Assembly (NCBI GenBank): GCA_013239625.1
Contig: MU053216.1
Span: 994,001-1,058,000, forward strand
DNA from: Lama guanicoe
Taxonomy: Eukaryota
DNA length: 64,000 bases
Direction: 5' to 3'
Each line of letters begins with the position of its first letter. The first letter of the stretch is position 1. Positions 36,661 to 61,490 of this stretch are shown one piece after another. Under the pieces are notes generated by a model, which searched no databases, was not told where the DNA came from, and saw only the letters and a list, made by a program, of their open reading frames with translations. A program made the translations under genes and the position numbers.

Positions 36661-36893
36661 NNNNNNNNNNNNNNNNNNNNNNNNNNNNNNNNNNNNNNNN
36701 NNNNNNNNNNNNNNNNNNNNNNNNNNNNNNNNNNNNNNNNNNNNNNNNNNNNNNNNNNNNNNNNNNNNNNNNNNNNNNNNNNNNNNNNNNNNNNNNNNNN
36801 NNNNNNNNNNNNNNNNNNNNNNNNNNNNNNNNNNNNNNNNNNNNNNNNNNNNNNNNNNNNNNNNNNNNNNNNNNNNNNNNNNNNNNNNNNNNN
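36661..36893. other. Assembly gap (233 N) in LAD1 intron 1
   Basis: Run of N characters. Confidence 1.
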
Positions 36894-38773: not shown

Positions 38774-39602
38774 ACCGCTGAGCGTGGAGGAAGCAGAGGT
38801 GCCCCAGCCACTACCCCCAGCCTCCAAAGATGAGGACGAGGATGTCCGGGCCACCCTCAGGTCGCGGCAGGAGCGGAGGCAGAGGCGGCAGGCGGTGGAG
38901 GTGGCACAGGCCCCCATCCGGGAGCAGCTGGAGGCAGAGGAGGGGAGGGACAGCTCGGCCGCTGGGCAGGCCAAGAAGGCGCCCCCGGTGCCCAAGAAGG
39001 AGGTGGAGCTGCTGTCTCGCAGGAGACTGAGCCAGGGGCGGCCGGGCTCCTGGGCCCTGGAGGAGGAGAGCTCGGCCGGCAGGGAGCCAGGAGGCAGCAG
39101 GAGGAGCGTCTCGGAAAAAGGCCCGGCTCCCGAGAAGCCTTCTGCTGTAGAGAAGACATTAGTACCTGAAAAGAGACCAGACTCCAAGCTCTCCGTCTCT
39201 GAGAAGGCCCCCAGCCGCGACCAAGTGTCTGTGTTGGAGAGGATCGCAGTGTTGGAAAAGACGACTGCCCCAGGAAAGAGATCAGTTCTGGAAAAAACCA
39301 GTGTCTCAGAGAAGCTGCCGGCCTCAGGGAAGGCGCCGGGCTCGGAGAGGAGCCTGGTGTCTGAGAAGGCGTCAGTCTTTGAGAAGACCCCGGCCACGGA
39401 GACAAGGCTGGCCCCGCTGAGGGCAGCGGCCTCGGGGCAGCCCGAGGCCCAGGAGCAGCTGGCCTCTGGGGAGAGCCCGTCCACCACCGAGGGGCAGAGA
39501 AGGGCCGGCCCCGAGAAGAAGCCCCCGTCCTCGGCAGGGCTGCGAGAGCAAAGGCCAGAGCCTCTGCCAGTGGCTTGCCGCCTCCCACCCATCACTCTCC
39601 AG
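38774..39602 (+). CDS. LAD1: LAD1 exon 3 (829 nt; SEK-type hexapeptide repeats)
   Basis: ctcag|A CCG CTG AGC GTG...CTC CAG|gttggc; same frame as ORF 38784..39884. Confidence 0.95.
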
Positions 39603-40068
39603 GTTGGCAGTGACACCCCCTCCCCTCTGGTCCTGCCCAGGTGGCCCCTGGTTCCCTCGCTGTCCCCTGTCCTCCCTCTAGGCCATTTCCTACCTGCTTC
39701 CAGACGCTGTCAGGGTAGAGCACTCATTGGGGGGAGGGGTTATCGGCTGTGTGGTGGGGGGCACCTGATACCCCGCACCACATCCTCATCCATGGCCCCG
39801 ACTCCAGACCCTAGCAAACTTGGGAAGCTTCAGATCCTTCTGGAAGTTCCCCTGGAAAGCTCTGCCTGGTGGCCTGGCCCCTAGGACTGTGTGCACCATC
39901 CCCACAGCAGGGGCGGAGGGACAGAAGGCAGTCGGCGAGGGCACAGGGCTGTCTCCCCCTTCCCCCTGCAGCTCCTGGGATGAGCCAGGCCAGCGGGGCC
40001 CCTGTGGCGGCTTGGGCTCAGGGCTGCCCAGACCTGTGTGTGACAATCCCCTCCTCCACTCCATCCAG

Positions 40069-40173
40069 ATGAAAATCCCCAGCAAGGAGGACGAGGCAGA
40101 CACACCCTCGCCCACCCAGTCCACCTACAGCAGCTCCCTCCAGCGCTCCAGCCCCAGGACCATCTCCTTTCGG
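40069..40173 (+). CDS. LAD1: LAD1 exon 4 (MKIPSKED...PRTISFR)
   Basis: tccag|ATG...CGG|gtgagg, 105 nt. Confidence 0.94.
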
Positions 40174-40930
40174 GTGAGGGCCCAGGGCACCTTTGTCCGC
40201 AGCCCTCTGGAGGGCTCGTGGAGACCAGCCCCCGTCGTCGGCACGGGGCCCTGGGCGAGAGAGCAGCGAGGCTGTCTGCAGGCGGCTGGCCCTGGGCGCC
40301 GCTGCAGCTGGGTAGTAGAGGGGCTGTTAGCAGGTGGGGGTGGGGGTGGCCGAGGCTGAACAGCCCTGTCTGGCGGCGCCCGGCCTGCAGGAAGGCGGCG
40401 CGGTGGGGACGTGGCCCTGGGAGGCCTGCTCAGTTCCTTCCTCGCTCAGCAGGGCAGGTCAGGGGGCTCTTGTGCCCAGCACCCTTCTCCACCCCTGGAG
40501 CGCGCACCTCGTGGGCGGGGGCCGCTCGCCTCCCCTCATTCCAGCATTTACTTCTGGCAGCTCTGTTTGCCAGGTCATTCACTCATTTTCTGACTGACCG
40601 TGTGCTGTGCCAGGCCTGGGGGAGGAGGCTCGAGGCCGGGTGCCGGCTGGTGCCTGTCCCTGCCCTACAGGGCCCAGGACGGCGGGAAGCAGACGGGAAC
40701 CTGGCGGTTTCAGGTCCCCCTGGGGGCGTCCAGGGAGGGGCTGCTGACCCAGCCTGGTGAGCAGGCGGGGGTCCCAGATCAGAGGAGGGCCTTCAGTGGG
40801 GGTGTGGTGGGGAGTGAGCAGGGGTGGGTGGGAGGCCCCAGGAGGTGGACATGTTCTGAAAACTGAGCCCTTGAGGGGGCCATGGCCTCCTTGGGACCCC
40901 GACTCATTGGCATCTCCCATCTCTTTTCAG

Positions 40931-40974
40931 ATGAGCCCCAGGATGGACAACTCCGAGACCACCTTAACCCGCAG
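40931..40974 (+). CDS. LAD1: LAD1 exon 5 (MSPRMDNSETTLTR)
   Basis: tttcag|ATG...CGC AG|gtcagg, 44 nt. Confidence 0.92.
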
Positions 40975-41811
40975 GTCAGGGGCTGGGGGGCTCAGGCTCG
41001 CACCCACCTGGTCACGCTGGCCTGTGCTTTCCCAGCCTGCCGCCTGCCCTCCTTGTGCTGCAGGGCACGCAATGGAGCGGGCTCTGGGTCCCGCAGGGTT
41101 AACATGGGCACTGAGGCCGACATGGGGACCAGGGAGGGAAGGATGGGGGAGCTGCTCCAAGGTGGATAAGACAGAGTTGCCCTCAAGCAGCCCCGTCAGA
41201 CCATTAAACATGCGAGAGCCACTTAGGAACTGGAATGCGAGCCAGGGGGAGTTTGTCACAGGACTGCTGACATCCGAATGGACTTGAAGAACTAGGGGAC
41301 ATGCCCAGGCGGGAGCCTGGGGCTGCATTTTGATAAGTGGGAACAGCATGTGGAGAGGCACGGAGTGTGACATGCTCAAGGTGTCCAGTTGGCTGGCTGG
41401 CTCTTCAGGGTGGCGAGAAAGGGGTTGTGGGGGACGCTGGTGTCAGGAGGGCAGGCAGGGCCAGATCCTGAACCTCATATGCTATCCTGAGGCCTGAGGA
41501 CAGGGCGGAGGGGGGAGGAGGCTGCAGTGGGGAAGGTGGAGGGGGAAGAGCTGATTCAGGAGACGTTTTTAGGGGGAAGTGATAGTGTGGGGGACGGGTG
41601 GCATTTATTTCTGGTCCTGGGGATGTCCTGCTGAACGACTGTCCCTAGGGAGGACCGCGGGGTCCCTGGGGACTCGCCCAGCCATTATGGTCTCACCCAG
41701 TGATGGGGGCCATACTCCCTGTCAGAATGGCGTGGGAGTGGAGGCAGGCCTGTCCCCTTCGGGAGGGCCAGGATCTCACCTGCTTGTCTCACCCTGTCCT
41801 CCGTCCCGTAG

Positions 41812-41884
41812 CAGCAGCATGAGGCTCCCGGCTGGCATGGTCAAGTTAGGCCAGAAGCTGGAGCGATACCACACGGCTATACAG
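41812..41884 (+). CDS. LAD1: LAD1 exon 6 (SSMRLPAGMVKLGQKLERYHTAIQ)
   Basis: cgtag|CAGCAGCATG...CAG|gtgggt; start could be 3 or 6 nt later (tandem acceptors). Confidence 0.88.
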
Positions 41885-41982
41885 GTGGGTGGGGCCCTTC
41901 TGGGGGGAGGAGACCTGATGGGTGTGGTGGGTGGGGCCTCCACCCCTCCCTGTGGGTCAGCTGTCCTGCTCTCTGCTCCCAG

Positions 41983-42120
41983 AGATCAGAATCCGTCAAG
42001 TCTCCGGGGTCCTCCCGCACTGAGTTCTTGGTGGCTCCCGTGGACGTGGCCAGCAAGCGCCACCTCTTTGAGAAGGAGCTGGTGGGTCAGAGCCGAGACG
42101 AGCCGGCCTCCAGCCGGAAG
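41983..42120 (+). CDS. LAD1: LAD1 exon 7 (RSESVK...VASKRHLFEKE...SSRK)
   Basis: cccag|AGA...AAG|gtgagc, 138 nt. Confidence 0.94.
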
Positions 42121-42405
42121 GTGAGCAGCTTGGGCCCAGCCAGGTGTCCTCAGGCCGATAAGCCTGCAGGGCTGCAGAACCCAAACCTGGGCCTCGGCAG
42201 GGCTAGGAAGCTCCGTGACTTCACACGTCGATTTTGGCAGGACTTGCCGCTGACCTGAGTAACTTGCAGTCTCTGTGCTGAGCCCCAAGTCCCTCAGCTG
42301 TGCGCACAGCTCCCGGGGGTGGTCCTGCGGCCTGTCCCGGGGGCCTCTGAACGTGCTGCGCTGTTGCCAGTGGCCCTGACCCGAGATGGAAGCCTGTCTT
42401 TTCAG

Positions 42406-42492
42406 GAGAACCTGAGGCTCTCGGGGGTTGTGACATCAAGGCTCAACCTGTGGATCAGCAGGACCCAGGAGCCTGGAGATCAGGACCCCCAG
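42406..42492 (+). CDS. LAD1: LAD1 exon 8 (ENLRLSGVVTSRLNLWISRTQEPGDQDPQ)
   Basis: tttcag|GAG...CAG|gtacct, 87 nt. Confidence 0.94.
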
Positions 42493-42704
42493 GTACCTGT
42501 CCCTCCTGAGGTCTCTTACACGGTCCTTTTTGCGGCAGAATGACTGGGTGAGAAGGGCAGCCTGGGAGCAGTGGGGACGTTCTAGGCGTGGAGACGGAGA
42601 AGAGAAGGGTCAGGGGTCCTCCGTCAGGAAGGGGGGTCCTGGGGCCCCCGAGTCCCTCTGTAGTCACCCTGAGCCCCTGGTCTCCACCCCATGCCTGCAT
42701 CCAG

Positions 42705-42779
42705 GAGGTGCAGAAAGAGTCGGCAGCAGCCAGGAGAACCCTGTGGAGGAAGAAAGCAGACGCCTCCCTGGATGCTGAG
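42705..42779 (+). CDS. LAD1: LAD1 exon 9 (EVQKE...SLDAE)
   Basis: tccag|GAG...GAG|gtgagg, 75 nt. Confidence 0.9.
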
Positions 42780-43055
42780 GTGAGGGGAGTGGAGGCGGCT
42801 GGCTCCTGGGAGACACCACATGCGCCCCCCCCCAGTGGCCCCCAGGCTGGGCGGACCCGACCTCTGACCGACTGCTGGCTGCAGCTGCCACTGGCTTTGC
42901 TTCCCCCACCACTGGGCCAGCCCCCACCCCCACCCCCTCAACCAGTAGATCTGGGGTCTCTGGCCCAGTGTGGGTGAGGTGCTTGGGGAAAAAGGATGCC
43001 TTCCTATCCAGCCCTCGGAGCCCCTCTCTTGTTCTCATAGCCCTTTGCCCTGCAG

Positions 43056-48270: not shown

Positions 48271-50554
48271 TTCTTTTTGCCTTCTATTGTTTTTGCTTTG
48301 CTCCCCAAGAAAGGGGACCCGACCTCTCAGATGTGAGGGGGACTGGCTAGGAAGCAGTCTGTGGGGCAGGAGGCGGCTCCGGTGCGGGCGTTCTCATTCC
48401 TTGCCTGCCAGGTTCTCCACTGTCTCCTCGCTGGAGCCCCAGCCCCAGCCCATCGTCTCCCCCACCCTCTGTCCCCTTGGACAATTGTCTTGCTGTGTCC
48501 TCTTTGCTGAATGCCCGCCCCCACCCAGCCTTGTGGTGGCAGGCTATTTTTAGGGGCTGGACAGTGCTCCCAGGAGCAGGGGGAGGTCTCCAGGGCCACG
48601 CCCAGGGGTGAGGGTGGGCTGGAAAGAAGAGAGGGCTAGACCCCAAGCCCCAGGCTGGCCACACACAGTCCCCGGGGAATCTCCCCCCTCCCTGAGATGA
48701 CACATTCCTCCTGGGGTTCAGGAGCGGCTGCCCAATTCTCAGGCTGCTGGTTCTGGCTATGCCCCTGGGGCTCCAGGCAGTGCTTATCCACCTGGGCTGG
48801 GGGCGGCCCTCCTGCGCTCTCCCCCGAAGCCCTACTTGGAGACGCTTTGGGGTGTGAGTCTCTCTCCTTACCTGTCTGATGTCTCTTCTCTCCCACCCCT
48901 ACCTGGGGGAGCCAAAAGGTGGTACAGCTTTTGTCCAAAGCTCCTTGTAACCAGCCCCACCCTCCGTGCCCCACCCGACTCCAGATTCCAGACTCCAGCG
49001 AGGGGGCTGGGGAGGGGCCTGCCTTGCTGTAGCCGCACTGTCCTGACCCAGCAGAACTGGACCAACTAGAGCAGGCTGGGGACAGGGGCTCCTTCAGAAC
49101 CTCAAAGGGGCTGCCTTGTGGCAGAAATCACGCCGCGTACTGAAGCTGTGGCTCACTGGATGTCAGATGGCTGCTTAGGGCCAGCCTCAGCTGCTACGGC
49201 GGGTCATATGGGGACAGGTGGCCAGGGCAGTGGGCATCACTATCTGTGCCACTGTCACTCACAGCGCTGGACATCAGTGGGACAAAGGCAGGGGAGGCCT
49301 CAGGTCACCCCGTCCCTTGTCTCCCAGGAGAGGAGGGAACTGAGGTGTAGGGAGGCCAATGACCTTTCCAAGGTCACATGCAAGTCCGTGATGGAGCCAG
49401 TAAAGCCAGATTAGTCTCACAGCCCAGTCCTGTGTGTGGCTTCCTCCACCCTTCCCTTGGCTTCTCCTGTCGGCACGCAGAAGTTACAGTAAAACACCTT
49501 CCTCCTTGTCAGCCCTGCCCTCAGAGACCCCAGGGCAGGGCAGCCAGGGCGCGGGCATCTGTCTCCATGGCACAGAGGAACAGCTGATGTCAGAGGCCTT
49601 GGGAAGACTTGTCCAAACCTGAGTCTCCACTGCCTGTTCCTAGTGTGGGGGTGTGTGTGTCTCGAAATGAACGTTTCCTTAGGGAAACTCCAGTTAATTG
49701 GATGGTGGTAGATAATGTGCCGTTGTGAGAAGGTACAGGCCCCCGTTCACTTTGCTCAGATCCCTGCCCCTCGCCAGCGGAAACATCTGCACAATCAGCT
49801 ACAGATCACAGCCGGGACCTGGAATTGGCCCCGATCCACCCTCTTCCTCCGATTCCCGGGTGCCGCTTGGACTGTGTGTGCGCGCGGGTGCGCGCGCGCG
49901 CGTCTGTGTGCGTGTGAGAGTGTGCGCGAGTGTGTGAGTCTATTCCCTTTTAACCGCTGTGGCTCAGTGGATCCACCACCACAGTGAAGACGCTGAGCAG
50001 CTCTGGAGCCGCGGGGCCCCTCAGGTGCCTCATCACCACGCCCACCTGCCCCCAGCCTCCCCACCACCCCTGAAACCAGTCTGCTCTCCATCTCTGCCGC
50101 TTTGCCACTTCAAGAGCGTGACACAAATGTAACCGTATGAATTGGCTTTTCCTGCCATCAGTGAGAGTCGCCCCCGGCAGACTCAGCCAGGCAGGGGTGC
50201 GCCCCGGTTTGTTCCTTTTATTGCCAAGTTGAGTCCGTAGCCAGGCCAGGGCTGTGCGGCTCTCCCGGGGCGGCTGTGTGGCTGGAGCTGGGGGCAGGGT
50301 TCTCCCCTGAGCACTGGGCAGGGCTGTGGCCTGAAAATGCATTTAGAGCCATTGTTCAGAAAGGCACGATGTTTGAGGCCGCTGCCCCTCTGGGGCGCTG
50401 GTGTCATCGTCGCCGACACAGGAGAGCGTGGGCAGACGCCGCGTCACGGGCTGCAAGGGGCGGGTGGACAGCAGGGCTCAGGTCTTCTCGCAGAGCTGAG
50501 GGCCGGCCCTCCGCCCACCCTGACTGCTTCTCTCCCCAGAGGGAAGTGGACACC

Positions 50555-50592
50555 ATGTCGGACGTGGAGGAGGCTGGAGAGGAGTACGAGGA
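50555..50592 (+). CDS. TNNT2: TNNT2 exon 2 coding part (exon starts 50540)
   Basis: accATG TCG GAC GTG GAG...GAG GA|gtgagt. Confidence 0.93.
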
Positions 50593-51297
50593 GTGAGTAC
50601 CGGGCGCCCTGTCGGTCCCCTCTGCACGCCTGGCCAGGGCTGCGGCATCCTGGGCCCCGAGGCCACCATCAGGCAAGGGGATCAGCAGTGAGCCCCCAGA
50701 GAGTTTCCCTAATGACTCCGAGGCCACAGAGTATCTAGCCCCAGAAACCCACTTCAGAGCCTTGTCACCGCTGCCTGGGAAGTTGCTGTCCCTGCACTTC
50801 CCTGTGCCCCACACTGCTCTGAGGGCCAGCTGTCCTAAGGGGGACACGCTGGAGGCCAGCCAGCCATCTCCTGGAGGGGCGGGTGCCCAGGGAGGAACCT
50901 GTGCAGGCACATCTGGGCGCGGAGGGTGGAGGGCTTGGGGGCTGCGTGTGGGTGGAGATGGGGGAGGAAGAGGGCTCTCGGGGTACAAGGGGAGCTGGGA
51001 GGTACGTGAGGGAAGAGGCTGGCAGAACGCAGGGGAGGTCAGCGGCTGACCTGATTTCCTGGGGACAGTGGGAGGCAACGTGGAGGGAGGCTGGGCTGGG
51101 CTGGGCTGGGCTTTGTGGCCAGGTGGGCTGGGCTTTGTGGCCAGGTGGGCTAAGCGGGGGACTCCAGGACCCAGTGAGGGGGCTAGGAACGGGCCATCTT
51201 CAGGAGAAGGCCTGTGTGTGGTGTGTGTGAGTGTGTGGTGTGAAGATGTGTGTGCAGCATGTGCTGTGTCCTGAAGGCATCTTTCCTCGCTCCACAG

Positions 51298-51308
51298 GGA
51301 GCAGGAAG
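51298..51308 (+). CDS. TNNT2: TNNT2 exon 3 (11 nt)
   Basis: cacag|GGAGCAGGAAG|gtaagc. Confidence 0.92.
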
Positions 51309-51416
51309 GTAAGCGCGCACCTGTCACTCCCTGGGTGGAAGGACAGCCTGGTTTGAAACCGACCTGACCCATCTCTTCTCTCCTCTCTTGCGGCCGCGGC
51401 CTCTTTCCTGGAGCAG

Positions 51417-51431
51417 AAGGAGATGTGGAAG
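51417..51431 (+). CDS. TNNT2: TNNT2 exon 4 (15 nt, alternative; EGDVE)
   Basis: gagcag|AAGGAGATGTGGAAG|gtatga after a long pyrimidine tract; symmetric phase 1. Confidence 0.8.
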
Positions 51432-51689
51432 GTATGAAGCTCAGGTGGACGGAGGTGGAAGGGGGGAGGCCAGAAGGAGGGCCTGGGGTGGGGGGCACCA
51501 TGTCCATTCCCACCCCTTGCTCTCTGCTGAGCAAAGAGCCTCCCCCCTCAACCAACCGCGGCCCCGAACTGGGATCAGCCCGAGCCCTGGGAGCTCAGAT
51601 CTCAGGACAAAAGCTTTAAACCTGTCTCTGCTGCCCACTGGCTTGTTCACACAGAATCGCCACTTTTCCCAGTGAATTATCTCTGCTTT

Positions 51690-52020
51690 CCCTCTAATTT
51701 CTTTTTTACCTTGTGAGGTTTTAAATGCTTGTAAAAGTAGCAAAAACAGAAGAATGCAGCCCCCCCCCATGCACCCGTCACCCAGCTCAGCGCCCACCAG
51801 CCCCGGCCAGTCTTCTTTCGCCTGCGCCTGCCTCCGCCCAGGACTGAGGGCAGACATCAGAATCAGCCCAGACATCACAGCATCTCCCGCTTACGTAGTT
51901 CAGCAATTTCTCTAAAAGATGAGCACTACTTGAATAGCGTAACCATAACAGCATGATCGCGCCTAAAACTTTCAGTTGAATACTTTTTCAAATGAGATCG
52001 TGGAAGTGTGCAGGTAGCTG
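51690..52020 (-). mobile_element. Old L1 3'-end fragment in TNNT2 intron 4
   Basis: AT-richer block with L1M-like phrases ('cccagacatca...tctctaaaagat...taaccataaca'); subfamily uncertain. Confidence 0.4.
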
Positions 52021-53392
52021 AGACATCTCATGCAGGTATGAAGACACTGTTACCTGGAGCAGGTCCACTGTGACCCCCAGATCTTTGCCCTTCCTTCTCT
52101 GTGATCATTACTGCAGCCTGGTGCCCCTTCTCCCTGAAAGCACCTAACCTTCTCTTCTTCCCGGGTGTTTGACCCACGGAGGTGGTCAGGAGAGCTCGCT
52201 CTGTCCTCAGCCTGCCCCCAAACAGCTTCTGCACCCCGAGCAGAGTGGACCTTGCCCCTGAGAGGCTCAGCAGATCCTCAGAAATGTCATTCTAGCACAT
52301 GGTGTGTGGATGTTAGGAGTTGGAAGTTCCGAGGACAGAGTCGGGGCTTGGGAGACATAGGGGCCGTTTCCGTGTCTTCTGGGGAAAATGGGGGCCGCCT
52401 GCACATGTGAGGCTGTTCTAGGGGTGCCTGTCAAAGAGGAGACACAGAGACGCTCCCAGGAGAACCTGGGAGGGGTGTTGGGAGCCAGCTCTCAAGGAAC
52501 AGCAAGCACTTCAGAGGCCATTTGGATAGTTTTGGAACCCAAATGTAGCTGGCTCCCCTCGAGGCTGTGTTCCCTGCCCAGCCCCTCCATACAGTGGGTT
52601 TCCTTGGCTTTGGGGAAGGAAGTTCGAGCCATAGACCCTGGATTTGGGACCCATCTGCGTGCTCTGCACAGTAGGACTTGATGGTAAATTAACAAAATAG
52701 CTCTCCACTGTGATGGCGGTCTGAGTCCCGTAGCATCTGCCTTGCTTGCAATGAATGGACCACAGCTGCGAGTAGCTACGCCCCTGCTGCCGGTGACCAG
52801 GAAAATGAGGTCTGGACAGACGTCACCAAGCTGCTAGGATGGCCAGCCCCAGGTCTCCGCTTCCTCCAGGAGACAGCAGTTCTATGCACATTGTTCCCTA
52901 GAGGCGGAACGCTGGGCGTTCCTCAGATGGGCAGCTTCCTTCCAAATCTGCCCCGAGCCCGGCTCTCCTGGAAAGGGGCGGTGTTCTGTGGGTACCCGAG
53001 AGGCTCCTTCGGGGTGGGAACGGGGAAGTGTTTGCTGGGAGTGAACTGACCCTGCTCTGCTCTCTGGAGCCTCTGCCCCAGCAGAGGGAGGCCAAGGCCC
53101 AGCCATGCAGAGGCAGGAGGTGGCCGGTTACCCCTCAGTCAGTGCTCCCCCGGCCAGGCACACCCGTACATCCCTGAGAAGTAAGTCCACCCTGGTGTCT
53201 GCATCCTGCTGACGAGGCACTGAGGCTCCAGGCAGTTACTGGAGCGGGGCGCCCAGGTTGCTAGGAGGTGGTGGGGCAGGACCTGGGCCCCGCCGCCCAC
53301 TCTCACCCTTCCACATGCTCCCGCCCCGTCCTCCTGCCCCAGACTAACCTGTCTGGCTTCTCCCCTTCACGGCTGCTGCTCCCTGACCCCAG

Positions 53393-53407
53393 AAGGGGAC
53401 AGAGATG
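53393..53407 (+). other. TNNT2: Remnant of TNNT2 fetal exon 5 (15 nt, GC donor)
   Basis: Branch point ACTAAC 53343-53348, pyrimidine tract, ccccag|AAGGGGACAGAGATG|gcagtgcagc; flanks align with the recalled human exon 5 context. Confidence 0.7.
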
Positions 53408-55111
53408 GCAGTGCAGCTTTGCCTGTCCCGTGACCCACCCCTGTCCCTGGGGCCGCCTGCCAGTCGGGCCTGTTGGGGGGGCAGGTGTGGGGGACCAAGG
53501 CCGCCGCTCCTGTTCCCGCTTCCTCAGCTCTCCCCTGGGCTGGGGGGAGGGGTGACCCAGCCTGGCCAGGCCCCCAGCCTGCTCCAAGTCCAGGTCTGGG
53601 GGGACTGACGTCTGCCTTCCTCTAGCGCCCCCACCATCCTGCTCCCGACCCTCCCTCTGGTGGACAGCACCCAGGCAGGGCAGCCAGGGGGTGAGGGGCC
53701 TGGGGACAGAGTCATTGGGGACTCCAGCTGGGGGACTGGAAATAGCTGGGGCAGGGGGGCATGATGTCAGCCCACAAGTGTGTGCTGCTGTGGGCAGGGC
53801 AAGACCAGGACAAGGGGGCAGACCGGGGCTTAAGTTTAGAAAGAGCTTTCTGACAGTGACATCTGAGGGTGTCGTGGGCAGCTGGGTGCCCATCTAGTGG
53901 GTGCTGTGTGGCCACTGGGTGAGGGTGAGGATTGAAACATCAGAGTGGGAGAGGTGTTAACGAGATGGCTGGAAGGTGGCCCCCACACCTGGCCCCGTCC
54001 TTGCTGGCCAGCCCTCCACTGTCACCCCCTGCTGGAAGGATCCTCTTTGAGGTAAGCATCCTGCAGGGGTCAAAGAAGAGGCATCTCCAGGCCTCAGAGA
54101 GGACTCAGACCTAGGAAAAGAAAGGAGGCCGGGGCAGGGGAGGCCGGGGCGGTGGAGACTGGGGTGGACGTTTCTCGTGCTGGCCCCGCCCCGTCGGGCT
54201 TTCCCACCCCCTCTGCTCAGAGGCCGCCACCCAAGGCCCTCAGCCCAGGAGCATCGCAGGCACCTCTTACAGGCCGAGCTGTGTGCCTGGCATCACGCTG
54301 TCTAACGTGTCTGTCTGCTCTGAGCATCTGACTGAGGTGGGGGCCACCTCCTGCCGAGCGAGTGGATGAAACAGGAGGATCCCCGGCTCTCTGGGTGGCG
54401 CACATGCCCACGTGGCGGGCAGCTCGTTCACTCACGTGCAGGCCAGCTCCTGGTTTCTCTCTGATGCAGATGAAGGGTTTCTAGGGTCTAAGTCCCCGAT
54501 AGGGGCTTCCCTGACCCCTGTGGTGCCACATCCCTGGGTGCAAAGTCGGGGAGTGGGGCGGGGAGTGAGGCGGGGAATGGGCGCCGAGTCAGACAGAAAG
54601 CCCACAGGCAGAGTCCCCGTCCAGCGGGGCCTCGAGGCCACCCCGCTCTGGGGCTGCCCCCGCCGCCTGCCCCCCGTGCTCCTGCCCTCCCCGCGGTCTG
54701 CGGGTCCAGAGCAGGTGTCCAGAGACCCCGGGAGGCGAGGCTCAAACAGAAGGACCTGCACAGCCACGCCTTTCCGCTGTGTTCCCCGGCGGCCAGCGGA
54801 CGTCCCGCGAGGAGCGGCGTTTCAGGCTTTGCGGTGCACAGTCCCTGCGGCAGCGGGCCAGTTCTGCTGCAGCCTGAGGCAGCCGGGCCAAGTACCGGCA
54901 GAACTTTATTTACGGAAGCAGTCTGGGGGCCAGGTTGGGCCCTGGGGTTTGCCAAATTCTGGTTTAAACCAAGAACAGAGCCGCCCCGGCCAGTCACACC
55001 AGTCACCCCCACATTCATCCTGCCCCTGGATGCCGCTGCGCCCCCCAGCCCCCCGTTCTCCTGCCGGCACATGCGGGGCCTGGGTTCACTGTGTCTGGGT
55101 CACTTCTCCAG

Positions 55112-55168
55112 AGCAGGAGGCAGCGGGAGAAGAGGCTGGAGGCGAGGCTGAGGAGCCCAATGTTGAAG
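55112..55168 (+). CDS. TNNT2: TNNT2 exon 6 (57 nt)
   Basis: tccag|AGCAGGAG...GAAG|gtgagg; acidic [19 protein letters not shown]. Confidence 0.88.
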
Positions 55169-55541
55169 GTGAGGCTCTGCTCGGAGCAGGGCGGGAGTCT
55201 GAGGGTCCGAGGGGCTTTGTCCTGGCACCCAGGTGACAAGCGCCCTGGAGCCATTCCCACGGCAGCAAGAAATCTGCCTGGAACATGCTTTGCAGCCCGG
55301 ACAGCAGTGCGTCCTGCCTGGGCTGGGGCTCAGCCCTCGGCTGTCTGCTCAATAGACGCTGACCACATGCTCCTCTTGTGCCAGGTTGTCTTGGGCGTGG
55401 GGGTGGGTGTGTGGACAGAGAGCTCCCGGACCCCAGGCCCCCGCAGGGCACGCTTAGCCAAGGACCTATGTGGGGAGGCTCTTGGCGGGGGGGCCTGAGC
55501 TCAGAACCAGGACCTTTACTGATTTCTCATGTTCTGTTTAG

Positions 55542-55577
55542 AAGATGGACAAGAAGAGGATGCTAAGGAGGTGGAAG
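55542..55577 (+). CDS. TNNT2: TNNT2 exon 7 (36 nt)
   Basis: tttag|AAGATG...GAAG|gtgagg. Confidence 0.9.
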
Positions 55578-56353
55578 GTGAGGACGCTGGACATCGGGAT
55601 GAGAACGGGGGGGCCAGGGAGCAGGGCAGCTCTGGGGGAGGGGATGGGGCTCGAGGATGAGAGGACAAGGCTCGGTGACCATGTGGGTTTTGGAGAGAAG
55701 CTGCCTTGGTGGTGCCCAGAGGGAGAGGGCCGGGTGTCCAGTCTAGGTGTCCAGTCTAGGCTGGGCAGTGGCCACAAGTCACATGTGCACACGAGTCTCC
55801 TGGAGCTTGGGTGACTCTCTCAAGAGTGCAGCATCTGCAGGATGAGATCCCACACACAGATGGTCCATGGGGCGGGTCACTGCTGTGGTCGCTGTCGGGC
55901 TTCAGCCTTCTCCAGCCGCCCAGGTGGCCCCAGTCATGCCTCCGGGGACAGTGCAGCCAGTGGGGCTGGGAATCATGCCCCTCAGCTTCCTGGTCCTGGG
56001 CCACCAGGAGATCTGGGGGCAACTGAGGAGGCAGAGACCGGGAGGGGACTCTGGGGCTAGGACCCCCAGGGACTGTGCCTCTGGCCGTCCTCCCTGCAGG
56101 CCAGTGCTGCTGATGAGAGGGCTGTGTGTGTCCCCGAGACACCCCCAGGGATGCTGTGAGACACAGTGTGGGGTTTGCCACCCTGATGCTTAGTTCTTTG
56201 GATTCTCCTGCAACCAGGGGTCCCCAAGGCTGGGAGGGCTGTCCCCAGGGCGGATGGGGAAGCAGAGGCCCACGGGTACCTAGTTCATCAGGGCAGAGTG
56301 AGACCAGACCCAGGACCTCCTGACCCCTGGCTGTGTGCTTCCCTCCTCTCCAG

Positions 56354-56387
56354 ACGGCCCAGTGGAGGGGTCCAAACCCAAGCCCAG
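56354..56387 (+). CDS. TNNT2: TNNT2 exon 8 ([11 protein letters not shown])
   Basis: tccag|ACGGC...CCCAG|gtgagt, 34 nt. Confidence 0.93.
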
Positions 56388-57482
56388 GTGAGTGGGGCGC
56401 ACCTGTCTGCACTGAAGCCCTGGGGGCAGGGGCCCGTCAGAGGGCACAGCCGCGACCAGGCCGCAGTGCCCTGTGGCACAGGGGGCATGGGCTGGGGGGT
56501 GTACAGGTCGTGTGCTGCACAAGAGTCTCACTGGGGTTTGCGTGTCGGGGGGGACTTGGGGGCCGAAATCCACCCACAGTCCATCACCAGTTCTGTGCCC
56601 CCCACGGTCAGCACTGCCTTCATCTAGAGGAAAAGACGGTCCTGACCCTGGGCGGACACCCCATCCTGTCCCACAGGAGAGCTAGAACACCCTCCTCAGT
56701 GGCTGCAGTGGGACCTGGGGAAAGAGGGAAGAACACTGCGGGGAAGCCAAGCAGTGAAGCCGTGTCAGCCTAGGCCTGTGGCTTCAGAGAGTCCCAAAGG
56801 GCCCCACGGGGCAAATTGGTGCCACATACGTGACATCGCCTGGGCGCTGGGTGTGGGGTGGGGTGGGGGCCCATGAGGTTTTCCTTTCGGGAGGGCCAAT
56901 CCCACCAGCAGAAGGTGCCTCAGCACACGTGCAGGGGTCTTCCAGCTTCAGCGGGCGGGTCTGAAATGGCCTGACACCAGCCCGGCCCCACAAGTCCAGC
57001 TCCCCTCCCGTTCCTGCGCTGGTACGAACACAGGAGGGTCTCGTTTCAGCCCCACACAGACGAGGGCAGACGGGGAAACCAAGGCCCAGAGCCCACGGGC
57101 CCCATGTCACACAGCTAGGGTGTGGTGGGGTGGGGACCAGGCTCCTGGGGAGATGCCAGGACGTGGCCAAATGCATCACCTGTCAGCCTCTCTTCCTCCT
57201 GGCTGTGTGGCTTTGAGCAAATCACTACGTCTCTGAGCCTCGGTTTTCTTAACTGAGATCAGTGGTTCCTGCTCCGTGTCTGATGAAGGGACACGTGTGA
57301 GAGCTGTGGGACCCCCACGTGGGTGCTGAGTGAGCGTGAGGACCCCATGTGGACACTGGCGCTGGTATCACCGGGCAGTGGGCCGCCACGCTTCCACAGG
57401 GAGGAGGGGCTCCTGTCCACCGGGCACCGCAGCCCCTCAGGTCCAGGGAGGGGTGGCGCTCACGCCTCCTTCTGTCCGCCAG

Positions 57483-57543
57483 GCTGTTCATGCCCAACCT
57501 GGTGCCGCCCAAGATACCTGACGGAGAGAGAGTGGACTTCGAC
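57483..57543 (+). CDS. TNNT2: TNNT2 exon 9 (LFMPNLVPPKIPDGERVDFD)
   Basis: gccag|G...GAC|gtgagt, 61 nt. Confidence 0.96.
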
Positions 57544-57674
57544 GTGAGTGCCGGCTTTGGGGAGGGCCGGCTCCATGGGAGAGACCTCATGGCCTTGTGG
57601 CTGCGGAAGGTCGCGGCAGGAGGGCATCCAGCGCTGGCCGCTGTCCTGGGTTCAGGCCCCAGCTGCCCCTCTGA

Positions 57675-57887
<213 letters not shown>

Positions 57888-58434
57888 TGAGGTCCAGCAG
57901 GGGCCCCCTTCCCACCCCAGAGGGCTGGAGCTGACCCATCCTCTCTGACCACCCCTACCCCCTCCCTCCCAGCGGGCAGAAGCCCCCCCACAATGGAGGG
58001 AAGATGCAGGTGGCCTCTGGAATCCCAGCTATCCCACTGGCGGGGGAGGTTACTTGGATTCCTTGTTCTCTCTCCACGGCCCATGTTGCTAGGTTGGCTG
58101 AGGACTTGGCCTCTATCTCCTGGCAGAGGGCCATTGTCAGGGTTGGGGGGGCACTGAGGGACACGGAGAAGCTGCCTGACATTTTTCAGAAGCTGAGGTC
58201 AGTCCCACGAGTACGGCTCGACGCGGGCCACCCATCCATCTTGGCCAGGGCGTTCCTGTGTCTGTTGTCCAAGGGACCGGCTGTGAGCAAAGGCCCTCGC
58301 AGGGAGACGCCGCTGCCCTGAGACTCTGAGGGGACAGCCCCTGGGGCTGCCTTGCCTCCTCTTTCCCGGGGGTCCTGTGTTCCCGATGACCCCTCCGCAC
58401 GCACACGCTGGGCAGGCTGTGTTTCCCTGCATAG

Positions 58435-58512
58435 GAGAAAAGGCGGGCGGAGCGGGCAGAGCAGCAGCGCATCCGGACTGAGCGGGAGAGGGAGCGTCAG
58501 ACCCGCCTGGCT
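58435..58512 (+). CDS. TNNT2: TNNT2 exon 11 (EKRRAERAEQQRIR...RLA)
   Basis: catag|GAG...GCT|gtgagt, 78 nt. Confidence 0.95.
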
Positions 58513-58898
58513 GTGAGTGACCCGCCCAGGCCCCTCGCTATCCATAGGCCAGCACTCAGTCCTGAGCGCTGGGCATTGTTTGGGCTCCAGTGATTCCCAG
58601 CGAACAGGACAAAATGCACTTAACGTCCTCATCCCTCCCCAGTGCAGGCCCCTGGGAGTTGAGGCACCGTGGCCCCCTTCCTGCGCTGCTGCCCAGGACC
58701 TTCCACAACCACGGGGCCCCCCAGAGTCCCCGGCCTGAGGGGTGGTGGGGCCTCACACTTGGGAATCAGGACCCCGTTCGTCACCGCTCAGCAACCTCCA
58801 GCCCCAGGCCCTGTGCCAGAGACGCCCTAGAGACACCCCACTCAGCCACGAAGACCCCAGCGCCAGCCCAGGGTTGGGGTTTCGGCCCCTGCCCCTAA

Positions 58899-59384
<486 letters not shown>

Positions 59385-59662
59385 TGAGCCCTGTAGACGT
59401 GGGCTGGTTTACCCCTGGGAGCTCACTCCCAGGTCCTAGTGTGGGTGCCCCGCACCCAAGATCCTCCATCCTCAGGGGGAGGGGAAACGGGAAATCGATT
59501 TCTTCAATGCAGTGGACTCATCAGAACGTTTTCCTAGACTTCTAAGCCCCTGGTCAGGACCGGGCCAGCCCCCTGGCTTTTGCACTCAGGTGACCATACC
59601 AGCAGGACGCTGCAGTCAGAATAGCCCCCACCCTAACCCTAACCCAGACGCCTGTCCAGTAA

Positions 59663-61129
<1,467 letters not shown>

Positions 61130-61271
61130 GTGAGTACCCCCGCCCCCGCCACTGCCCGCCCCGCCCCGCCTCTTGTCTCCCAGCCACCCCTCCTTCTCCT
61201 TCCCTCAGCGCCGACCGTGGAGAGCTGCTGCCCTGCCCTGCTCTGCCTCACAGGGCCTGCTTCTCTTGCAG

Positions 61272-61317
61272 CTCCAAGACCCGCGGGAAGGCCAAGGTCA
61301 CCGGGCGCTGGAAGTAG
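61272..61317 (+). CDS. TNNT2: TNNT2 exon 17 coding part (SKTRGKAKVTGRWK*)
   Basis: tgcag|C TCC AAG...AAG TAG. Confidence 0.96.
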
Positions 61318-61490
61318 AGGCCCGGCCTCCTTCCCCCAGGCCCTCCTCCCTGGCCATGTCCCTGCCCTGCACGCCCCCTGCTCCTGGGGGCCCCCGAGCA
61401 CCCCCCCGGGCCAACTGCCCCCTGCAGCCCAGGAGCTGCCCAGCTGGACGCCGCACTCACGCTGACCCCCACACGCCCACCCCAGCCCGG

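What the first reader, a model, noticed from the sequence alone, without database searches (positions are those of the whole stretch)
53340..53430. TNNT2 fetal exon 5 appears halved to 15 nt and its donor reads GC instead of GT
Seen: a branch point (ACTAAC 53343-53348), pyrimidine tract and CAG acceptor (53390-53392) precede AAGGGGACAGAGATG and then GCAGTGCAGC; I saw no other acidic 30-nt exon candidate between exons 4 and 6. Established: mammalian TNNT2 exon 5 is a ~30-nt acidic cassette included in embryonic heart, controlled by CELF/MBNL and mis-included in myotonic dystrophy. From recall, the human context is ...cagactaacctgtctcgctttt...cctcag|30 nt|gtagtacagc, which aligns here. Inference: the exon lost 15 nt (still in frame, EGDRD, lacking the Trp and most acidic residues) and has a weak ATG|GCAGTG donor. 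The fetal cTnT isoform switch may therefore be lost or rewired in this lineage.
Basis: partly seen in the sequence, partly recalled or inferred. Interest (0 to 1): 0.75.

Follow-up and report, generated by a model that had tools for sequence, protein, structure and literature searches.

The report
Decayed fetal exon in camelid TNNT2
In the alpaca heart-muscle gene TNNT2, the small exon that most mammals and birds use only in the fetal heart is cut to half its length and has a damaged splice signal, so camelids probably no longer make the classical fetal form of this protein.

Summary
The window carries TNNT2 on the + strand, and its exons are 100% identical to an NCBI alpaca model. Between exon 4 (51417-51431) and exon 6 (55112-55168) the only exon-5-like element is 53393-53407, which is 15 nt long, in frame (E-G-D-R-D), and followed by GC. 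A published human TNNT2 intron-4 primer motif matches exactly once, just upstream of it, so the acceptor side is orthologous. Protein models of pig, porpoise, rorquals, carnivores, primates, rodents, marsupials and birds carry a 10-residue exon 5, so 15 nt is the derived state. An independent DNA contig shows no indel here. Intron contigs from a camelid about 4% diverged from the window, with Camelus-type exon 6, also show no 15-nt difference, so the shortening is shared across camelids. In two very deep RNA runs of that relative, exon 4 joins exon 6 directly. None of the 10 camelid protein models seen contains EGDRD. The donor is far weaker than any donor used nearby in this gene. Best reading: a decayed pseudo-exon. 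No fetal-heart RNA was available, so loss of the fetal isoform is inferred and not shown. Interest is moderate to low.

The parts
50540..50592 (+). TNNT2 exon 2 (ATG at 50555; MSDVEEAGEEYEE), donor GGA|GTGAGT
   Evidence: RNA contigs run up to 50593 and continue with exon 3 letters (table 7).
51298..51308 (+). TNNT2 exon 3, 11 nt (GGAGCAGGAAG), donor AAG|GTAAGC
   Evidence: Its letters follow exon 2 in the loose ends of X15, X16 and X17.
51417..51431 (+). TNNT2 exon 4, a 15-nt alternative exon encoding E-G-D-V-E, donor AAG|GTATGA
   Evidence: Present in 6 and skipped in 2 of 8 Camelus models. Its letters lie directly before exon 6 in RNA contigs.
51432..55111 (+). Effective single intron between exon 4 and exon 6 (3,680 nt). 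It contains the exon 5 relic.
   Evidence: Loose ends before 55110 carry exon 3 + exon 4 letters (X16: 9, X17: 31). Table 5c shows X17 going from 50593 to 55110 with exon 3 + 4 letters between. None of the 14 listed joints touches 53380-53420.
53338..53392 (+). 3' end of ancestral intron 4: branch-point-like ACTAAC 53343-53348, pyrimidine tract, two UGCU (YGCY, MBNL-type) motifs at 53374 and 53377, CAG acceptor 53390-53392
   Evidence: The human primer motif matches at 53338-53352. YGCY count and 14/20 pyrimidines are. Fold is -12.5 kcal/mol, z -2.1.
53393..53407 (+). Relic of embryonic exon 5: 15 nt, in frame, E-G-D-R-D, no Trp
   Evidence: Compared with the 10-residue exon 5 of other species.
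53408..53409 (+). GC at the ancestral donor position (ATG|GCAGTG): 4/9 consensus matches, U1 duplex -2.8 kcal/mol
53411..53412 (+). Alternative GT three bases downstream (GCA|GTGCAG). It would give an 18-nt in-frame version (E-G-D-R-D-G-K). 3/9 consensus matches, U1 duplex -1.4 kcal/mol.
55112..55168 (+). TNNT2 exon 6 (EQEAAGEEAGGEAEEPNVE), donor AAG|GTGAGG
   Evidence: RNA depth about 9e4-1.7e5 in its bin.
55542..55577 (+). TNNT2 exon 7 (EDGQEEDAKEVE), with a tandem alternative acceptor at 55545 (plus or minus one Glu)
   Evidence: Joints 55168>55542 and 55168>55545 are. P0072 and P0262 differ by this residue.
56354..56387 (+). TNNT2 exon 8 (DGPVEGSKPKPR), donor CAG|GTGAGT
   Evidence: Joint 55577>56354 is.

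Best explanation
The element at 53393-53407 is the decayed remnant (pseudo-exon) of the embryonic cassette exon 5 of cardiac troponin T. In the camelid lineage the ancestral 30-nt acidic, Trp-containing exon lost 15 internal bases. The most economical reading is loss of the middle of the exon, with the first codons and the last D-x-D codons kept. In the alpaca assembly the donor GT also reads GC, in a context with almost no complementarity to U1. The upstream branch point, pyrimidine tract, acceptor and MBNL-type UGCU motifs are still recognisable. With half of a very short purine-rich exon gone and no usable 5' splice site, exon definition should fail, so introns 4 and 5 are removed as one 3.68-kb intron and exon 4 joins exon 6. 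N-terminal isoform variety in camelids would then rest on exon 4 skipping and the one-codon tandem acceptor of exon 7. Shown: the anatomy; orthology of the acceptor side; the derived length; the length shared between the window and a ~4% diverged camelid; exon 4-6 junctions in RNA; a donor much weaker than its neighbours. Inferred: that the element is never spliced in fetal heart, and which 15 bases were lost.
For: Gene identity: exons match NCBI alpaca model P0072 at 100%, and P0072 carries PF00992. Orthology: the human intron-4 primer motif is found once, 40 nt upstream of the acceptor. Derived length: the 10-residue exon 5 is EEEAWRQDGD in pig, EEAWREDGPE in porpoise and EEARREDGPE in two Balaenoptera. 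It is EEEDW(R/Q/K/L)EDED-like in carnivores, pangolin, mole, shrew, primates, rodents, pika, tree shrew, elephant shrew and marsupials, with a Trp-bearing counterpart in birds and reptiles. No other candidate lies in the intron. Not an artefact: X11's DNA contig covers 51761-56450 with 0 gaps and 7 differing letters, and 14 DNA runs from organisms A-E hold 0.86-1.00 of the words. Shared across camelids: intron contigs of X15, X16 and X17 differ from the window at about 4% of letters (111 of 2,886 in X16) and span the relic. No indel is listed between 52893 and 53429. At most 4 (X16) and 10 (X17) gap letters are left unlisted, too few for a 15-nt difference. RNA: exon-bin depths are about 1e4-1.7e5. 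Letters of exon 3 + exon 4 lie directly before exon 6 in 9 (X16) and 31 (X17) loose ends. None of the 14 listed joints is at the relic. Models: 0 of 8 Camelus and 0 of 2 alpaca protein models contain EGDRD. Donor strength: -2.8 kcal/mol and 4/9 consensus matches, against -5.7 to -10.1 kcal/mol and 6-8/9 for exons 2, 3, 4, 6 and 7. By eye, exon 8 is CAG|GTGAGT, 9/9.
Against: No fetal-heart RNA of any camelid was examined. Adult hearts skip exon 5 even where it is intact, so the exon 4-6 junctions do not discriminate. All four laid runs are assembled contigs, which drop rare variants, and a 15-nt exon is hard for an aligner to place. The X17 loose-end agreement of 0.98 would tolerate one deviant contig in 31. 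The RNA comes from the diverged relative, not from the window's species. The relic stays in frame without a stop and keeps its acceptor, branch point and YGCY motifs, which is also what a still-used micro-exon would look like. The base at 53408/53409 in the diverged relative was not visible, because 182 rows of differences were not shown. The GC may therefore be younger than the deletion. No DNA of a non-camelid was available, so the deletion is inferred from protein models.
Confidence: 0.62

Rival explanations
1. The 15-nt (or 18-nt) element is still a working micro-exon. It would be included in fetal camelid heart through the GC donor or the GT three bases downstream, still under MBNL/CELF control, and would give a shorter and less acidic embryonic isoform (+EGDRD or +EGDRDGK).
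For: Both versions are in frame with no stop. The acceptor region is as pyrimidine-rich as those of the used exons, at 14/20. ACTAAC and two UGCU motifs are retained. The length is unchanged between two camelid lineages about 4% apart. GC-AG introns exist in mammals (recalled).
Against: Both donors are far weaker than any used donor nearby: -2.8 and -1.4 kcal/mol, with 4/9 and 3/9 consensus matches. Functional GC donors normally match the rest of the consensus well (recalled), and this one does not. No joint lies at the relic in two RNA runs with exon depth around 1e5. 0 of 10 camelid models include it. About 4% divergence is too little for neutral decay to have erased the splice signals, so their survival is weak evidence of use.
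Confidence: 0.2
2. Assembly or sequencing error: the real genome has a 30-nt exon and a GT donor.
For: The assembly is fragmented, with 55,231 contigs. The region is 61-64% G+C.
Against: X11, a run not flagged as a possible source, gives a contig over 51761-56450 with 0 gaps and 7 differing letters. 14 DNA runs from 5 organism labels hold 0.86-1.00 of the sampled words. Three runs of a diverged relative show no 15-nt indel. X11 has only one C>T change among the 9 differing places counted for it on the 6-kb stretch, and its position was not shown.
Confidence: 0.03
3. The decay is not camelid-specific. It would be one instance of a wider erosion or loss of exon 5 in Cetartiodactyla, and perhaps in horses and bats, so camelids are not special.
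For: Pig and porpoise exon 5 have already lost acidic residues: EEEAWRQDGD and EEAWREDGPE, against EEEDWREDED in carnivores and primates. Two Balaenoptera models have Arg in place of Trp. A gray-whale model reads EEEARREDG followed by intron-like residues, which is compatible with a 24-nt exon. None of the roughly 35 ruminant, 20 horse or 10 bat models seen carries exon 5.
Against: Absence from models may only reflect missing fetal RNA. Pig, porpoise and Balaenoptera keep 10 residues, so the 15-nt loss itself is not shared with them. No DNA of ruminants or horses could be examined.
Confidence: 0.3

Closest known systems
Embryonic cassette exon 5 of vertebrate TNNT2 (cardiac troponin T)
   Same: It has the same gene and the same position between the 15-nt exon 4 and exon 6, and the same reading phase. 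The upstream intron segment matches the human MBNL1-binding stem-loop RNA primer (PMC3326330, passages). YGCY motifs lie next to the 3' splice site.
   Different: It is 15 nt instead of 30. It encodes 5 residues with 3 acidic ones and no Trp, instead of 9-10 mainly acidic residues (PMC4012202, passages). It has GC instead of GT at the donor. No transcript evidence was found.
GC-AG introns of mammals
   Same: GC lies at intron positions +1 and +2, after an exon ending in G.
   Different: Functional GC donors usually match the rest of the consensus closely (recalled, not tested here). This site matches 4 of 9 positions and pairs with U1 at only -2.8 kcal/mol.
Aberrant N-terminal splicing of cardiac TnT in turkey, dog, cat, pig and guinea pig (Biesiadecki et al. 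2002, as summarised in PMC4012202 and PMC4270238)
   Same: These are lineage-specific changes in the use of N-terminal variable-region exons of the same gene.
   Different: Those cases are altered use of intact exons (exon 7 or 6 skipping, exon 5 retention in the adult dog). Here the exon itself is structurally truncated.

Membership tests
TNNT2 (cardiac troponin T) gene | Encodes a troponin T domain protein orthologous to annotated cardiac TnT | tested here: met
   Window exons are 100% identical to NCBI 'troponin T, cardiac muscle isoform X2 [Vicugna pacos]'. PF00992 is precomputed for that protein. Conserved cTnT peptides were found in order along the + strand.
TNNT2 (cardiac troponin T) gene | Neighbourhood: LAD1 directly upstream on the same strand (recalled from the human locus) | tested here: met
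   Ladinin-1 parts of Camelus model P0265 map to 38784-42803 on the + strand, upstream of TNNT2.
TNNT2 embryonic exon 5 cassette | Lies between exon 4 and exon 6, behind the intron-4 segment that binds MBNL1 in human | tested here: met
   Position. The human primer motif matches once at 53338-53352. UGCU motifs are at 53374 and 53377.
TNNT2 embryonic exon 5 cassette | About 30 nt encoding 9-10 mainly acidic residues (PMC4012202) | tested here: not met
   15 nt encoding E-G-D-R-D. The other species listed have 10 residues.
TNNT2 embryonic exon 5 cassette | Conserved Trp flanked by acidic residues | tested here: not met
   There is no Trp codon in the relic. Trp is present in all exon-5-bearing models seen except Balaenoptera and gray whale, which have Arg.
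TNNT2 embryonic exon 5 cassette | Usable 5' splice site | tested here: not met
   The site is GC with 4/9 consensus matches and -2.8 kcal/mol. The nearby GT has 3/9 and -1.4 kcal/mol. Used donors have 6-8/9 and -5.7 to -10.1 kcal/mol.
TNNT2 embryonic exon 5 cassette | Included in embryonic heart, skipped in adult | not testable with these tools
   Only contigs of RNA runs of unknown stage from a diverged camelid were available. They show exon 4 joined to exon 6.
GC-AG intron | GC donor compensated by strong consensus at the other positions (recalled) | tested here: not met
   ATG|GCAGTG lacks the consensus base at -2, +4, +5 and +6.

The most novel reading that the evidence does not exclude
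The whole family Camelidae has lost the embryonic, highly acidic cardiac troponin T isoform, which is otherwise kept from birds to mammals. This would be a natural knock-out of the exon 5 developmental switch. It may be the end point of a relaxation of constraint on this exon across Cetartiodactyla: Trp replaced by Arg in rorquals, a shorter exon in gray whale, and no exon 5 in any ruminant model seen.
Probability: 0.45. Interest if true: 0.45.

Novelty: new variant of a known kind. Interest (0 to 1): 0.35.

Why it matters
Exon 5 of TNNT2 is a textbook model of developmentally regulated splicing. MBNL and CELF act on it antagonistically, and it is mis-included in myotonic dystrophy. Its inclusion is reported to raise the Ca2+ sensitivity and acidosis tolerance of embryonic myofibrils (PMC4012202, passages). 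A mammalian family that has structurally lost the exon would be a natural test of whether the embryonic isoform is dispensable for heart development. It would also show what happens to the flanking regulatory elements once their target is gone. The practical value is smaller. It explains why camelid gene models lack an embryonic isoform, and it warns against transferring exon 5 annotation by homology. I found no paper on this in the held library.

Tried and rejected
1. Orthologous DNA from other mammals. A metagenome scan used a two-block pattern from the window's intron-4 end. It returned one locus (L001), which is unrelated non-mammalian-looking sequence, as expected for a chance hit. No further scan was allowed, so no DNA alignment with pig, cow, horse or human could be made.

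2. Earlier findings of this scan. The 'near', 'relatives' and 'words' look-ups returned nothing relevant.

3. The base at 53408/53409 in other camelids. The table of differing letters in read laying was cut, with 182 rows not shown, and no listed row lies beyond 52963.

4. Read-through gray-whale model P0330 as a stand-in for whale DNA. Its segment around EEEARREDG aligns with the alpaca read-through translation (SP-RGCRSPTSEEEARREDGTAAFQPP against SPLHGCCSLTPEGD---RDGSAALPVP). The score is 40, reached by 1 of 1,000 shuffles. An equal score occurs at another place in the intron (around 54728-54749), so this is only weak support for orthology of the donor side.

5. Papers that might hold the human exon 5 and intron 5 sequence (PMC230736, PMC231397, PMC2080590) are not held. 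PMC2447309 is held as a reference list only. PMC7901844 concerns exon 5 of MBNL1 itself.

6. Absence of the relic from RNA contigs is recorded here as non-decisive, because contigs drop rare variants and the stage of the samples is unknown.

7. Duplicate of exon 4. The relic and exon 4 share 9 of 15 letters, but their flanks are unlike (by eye). I reject duplication, and purine-rich acidic coding composition explains the resemblance.

8. The ex8 row used an exon end one base off. It is corrected by eye.

Full report
**What is there.** The window carries a cardiac troponin T gene on the + strand. Conserved cTnT peptides lie in order from 50555 (MSD...) to the GRWK stop near 61320. The exons at 56353-56388, 57481-57543, 57699-57815, 58435-58512 and 58926 onward translate at 100% identity to the NCBI model 'troponin T, cardiac muscle isoform X2 [Vicugna pacos]' (P0072). 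The window is therefore alpaca or something nearly identical. Ladinin-1 exons lie upstream at 38784-42803.

My reading of the 5' exons:
- Exon 2: 50540-50592 (ATG at 50555, donor GGA|GTGAGT).
- Exon 3: 51298-51308.
- Exon 4: 51417-51431 (E-G-D-V-E).
- Exon 6: 55112-55168.
- Exon 7: 55542-55577.
- Exon 8: 56354-56387.

Every coordinate in the finding is right: ACTAAC at 53343-53348, CAG at 53390-53392, AAGGGGACAGAGATG at 53393-53407, and GC at 53408-53409.

Exon-5 peptides from 8 species were slid over the intron. The best score was 22, against 20 on the minus-strand control, so no intact exon 5 is hidden there.

A paper on MBNL1 and p68 prints the primers used to make the human 'stem-loop regulatory' RNA of TNNT2 intron 4 (PMC3326330, passages). 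The 15-base gene-specific part of the sense primer occurs exactly once in the 64-kb window, at 53338-53352, with 0.01 matches expected by chance. The reverse complement of the antisense primer ends in ...CTCCCTGAACCTCAG, against ...CTCCCTGACCCCAG in the window (by eye). The acceptor side is therefore orthologous to the human intron 4/exon 5 boundary. Two UGCU motifs sit 13-19 nt upstream of the acceptor.

Orthology of the donor side rests on weaker evidence. A read-through gray-whale model (P0330) aligns across the element with score 40, reached by 1 of 1,000 shuffles. An equal score occurs elsewhere in the intron.

**Is 15 nt derived?** Three protein searches and two cluster look-ups gave several hundred cTnT models. 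A 10-residue insert between exons 4 and 6 is present in primates, rodents, pika, tree shrew, carnivores, pangolin, mole, shrew, elephant shrew and marsupials. Birds and reptiles carry a Trp-bearing counterpart.

Within Artiodactyla it is present in:
- pig (EEEAWRQDGD),
- porpoise (EEAWREDGPE),
- two Balaenoptera species (EEARREDGPE, with Arg replacing Trp).

The camelid 5-residue version is therefore derived. The simplest reading keeps the first codons and the terminal D-x-D, and removes the middle, including the Trp. This is an inference from proteins, because no non-camelid DNA could be obtained. None of the ruminant, horse or bat models seen carries exon 5. That may reflect missing fetal RNA, or a wider erosion of the exon.

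**Artefact?** The stretch occurs once in the 2.05-Gb assembly. Fourteen DNA runs under five organism labels hold 0.86-1.00 of the 635 sampled words of 50400-56450. A contig of X11, a run not flagged as a possible source, covers 51761-56450 with 7 differing letters and no gap.

**Shared across camelids.** Three RNA-library runs (X15, X16, X17) contain intron contigs that span the relic and differ from the window at about 4% of letters (for example 111 of 2,886 in X16). Their exon 6 ends with the E-P-S-A-E variant of the Camelus protein models, not the window's E-P-N-V-E. No indel is listed between 52893 and 53429. The unlisted gap letters number at most 4 in X16 and 10 in X17, which cannot hide a 15-nt difference. 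The shortening therefore predates the split of these lineages. Whether the relative also has GC at the donor could not be seen, because the table of differences was cut.

**Transcripts.** X16 and X17 cover TNNT2 exons at depths of about 1e4-1.7e5, and the introns at about 20-55. Letters of exon 3 plus exon 4 lie directly before exon 6 in 9 (X16) and 31 (X17) loose ends, with agreement 1.0 and 0.98. One X17 contig runs from exon 2 to exon 6 with exactly exon 3 + 4 letters between. None of the 14 listed joints touches the relic. Of the 8 Camelus models, all fused to ladinin-1, and the 2 alpaca models, none contains EGDRD. They vary only by exon 4 and by one Glu at exon 7.

These data fit a dead exon but do not prove it:
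- The stage of the samples is unknown.
- Adult hearts skip exon 5 anyway.
- Contigs lose rare forms.

**Splice-site strength.** Against the 9-position donor consensus and the U1 5' end, the used donors of exons 2, 3, 4, 6 and 7 score 6-8/9 and -5.7 to -10.1 kcal/mol. The GC site scores 4/9 and -2.8 kcal/mol. A GT three bases downstream, which would give an in-frame 18-nt version, scores 3/9 and -1.4 kcal/mol. The acceptor side is ordinary, with 14 of 20 pyrimidines.

**Known biology used.** Mammalian cTnT has 17 exons, of which 4, 5 and 13 are alternative. [quoted passage not shown] Its inclusion raises acidosis tolerance and Ca2+ sensitivity (PMC4012202, passages). MBNL1 binds a stem-loop at the 3' end of intron 4, competes with U2AF65 and represses exon 5. 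CELF1 acts antagonistically, and CUG repeats increase inclusion (PMC4176163, PMC7901844 and PMC3326330, passages). A purine-rich exonic enhancer in this exon is recalled from Cooper-lab papers, of which I saw only the titles in a reference list.

**Verdict.** The structural interpretation (halved exon, crippled donor) is supported, and it extends to camelids as a family. The physiological conclusion, loss of the fetal isoform, is likely but untested.

Four searches found no paper on TNNT2 exon 5 in camelids (listings and abstract starts only). This is a new variant of a well-known cassette exon, of moderate to low general interest. It would be of real interest to troponin and splicing specialists if fetal RNA confirms the loss.

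Noticed in passing
window 38784-42803 and 50540-61320: LAD1 lies directly upstream of TNNT2 on the same strand. All 8 Camelus models seen that carry the cTnT N-terminus are LAD1-TNNT2 fusions named 'ladinin-1' (721-788 aa), which is probably read-through or mis-joined annotation.
   Followed up: partly
window 54577-55111 and 59037-59384: The only two alpaca TNNT2 protein models (P0072 and P0262, 458 and 459 aa) start inside intron 5 and run on into the intron after the ...FGGYIQK exon. They lack exons 2-4, although these exons are intact in the window and are used in the relative's RNA.
   Followed up: partly
window 55540-55545: Exon 7 has a tandem (NAGNAG-type) acceptor, TAG|AAG|. Both forms occur (plus or minus one Glu). 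They are seen as joints 55168>55542 and 55168>55545 in RNA contigs, and as P0262 versus P0072 and the Camelus isoform pairs.
   Followed up: partly
window 51417-51431: Exon 4 (15 nt, E-G-D-V-E) is skipped in 2 of 8 Camelus models. It shares 9 of 15 letters with the exon 5 relic, which is most likely a composition effect.
   Followed up: partly
proteins P0334, P0339, P0330, P0253, P0170 (no window coordinates): Exon 5 looks relaxed across Cetartiodactyla. Pig and porpoise have lost acidic residues. Two Balaenoptera models have Arg for the conserved Trp. A gray-whale read-through model is compatible with a 24-nt exon. No ruminant or horse model seen contains exon 5.
   Followed up: partly
window 55158-55168 (table 5c): In run X17 many contig variants differ in the last 7-8 letters of exon 6, at depths of 35-240. 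Given an exon depth of about 1.7e5, these are probably error contigs rather than alleles or editing.
   Followed up: no
window 36661-36893: This is the only run of N in the window (233 bases). It lies upstream of LAD1 and is unrelated to the finding.
   Followed up: no
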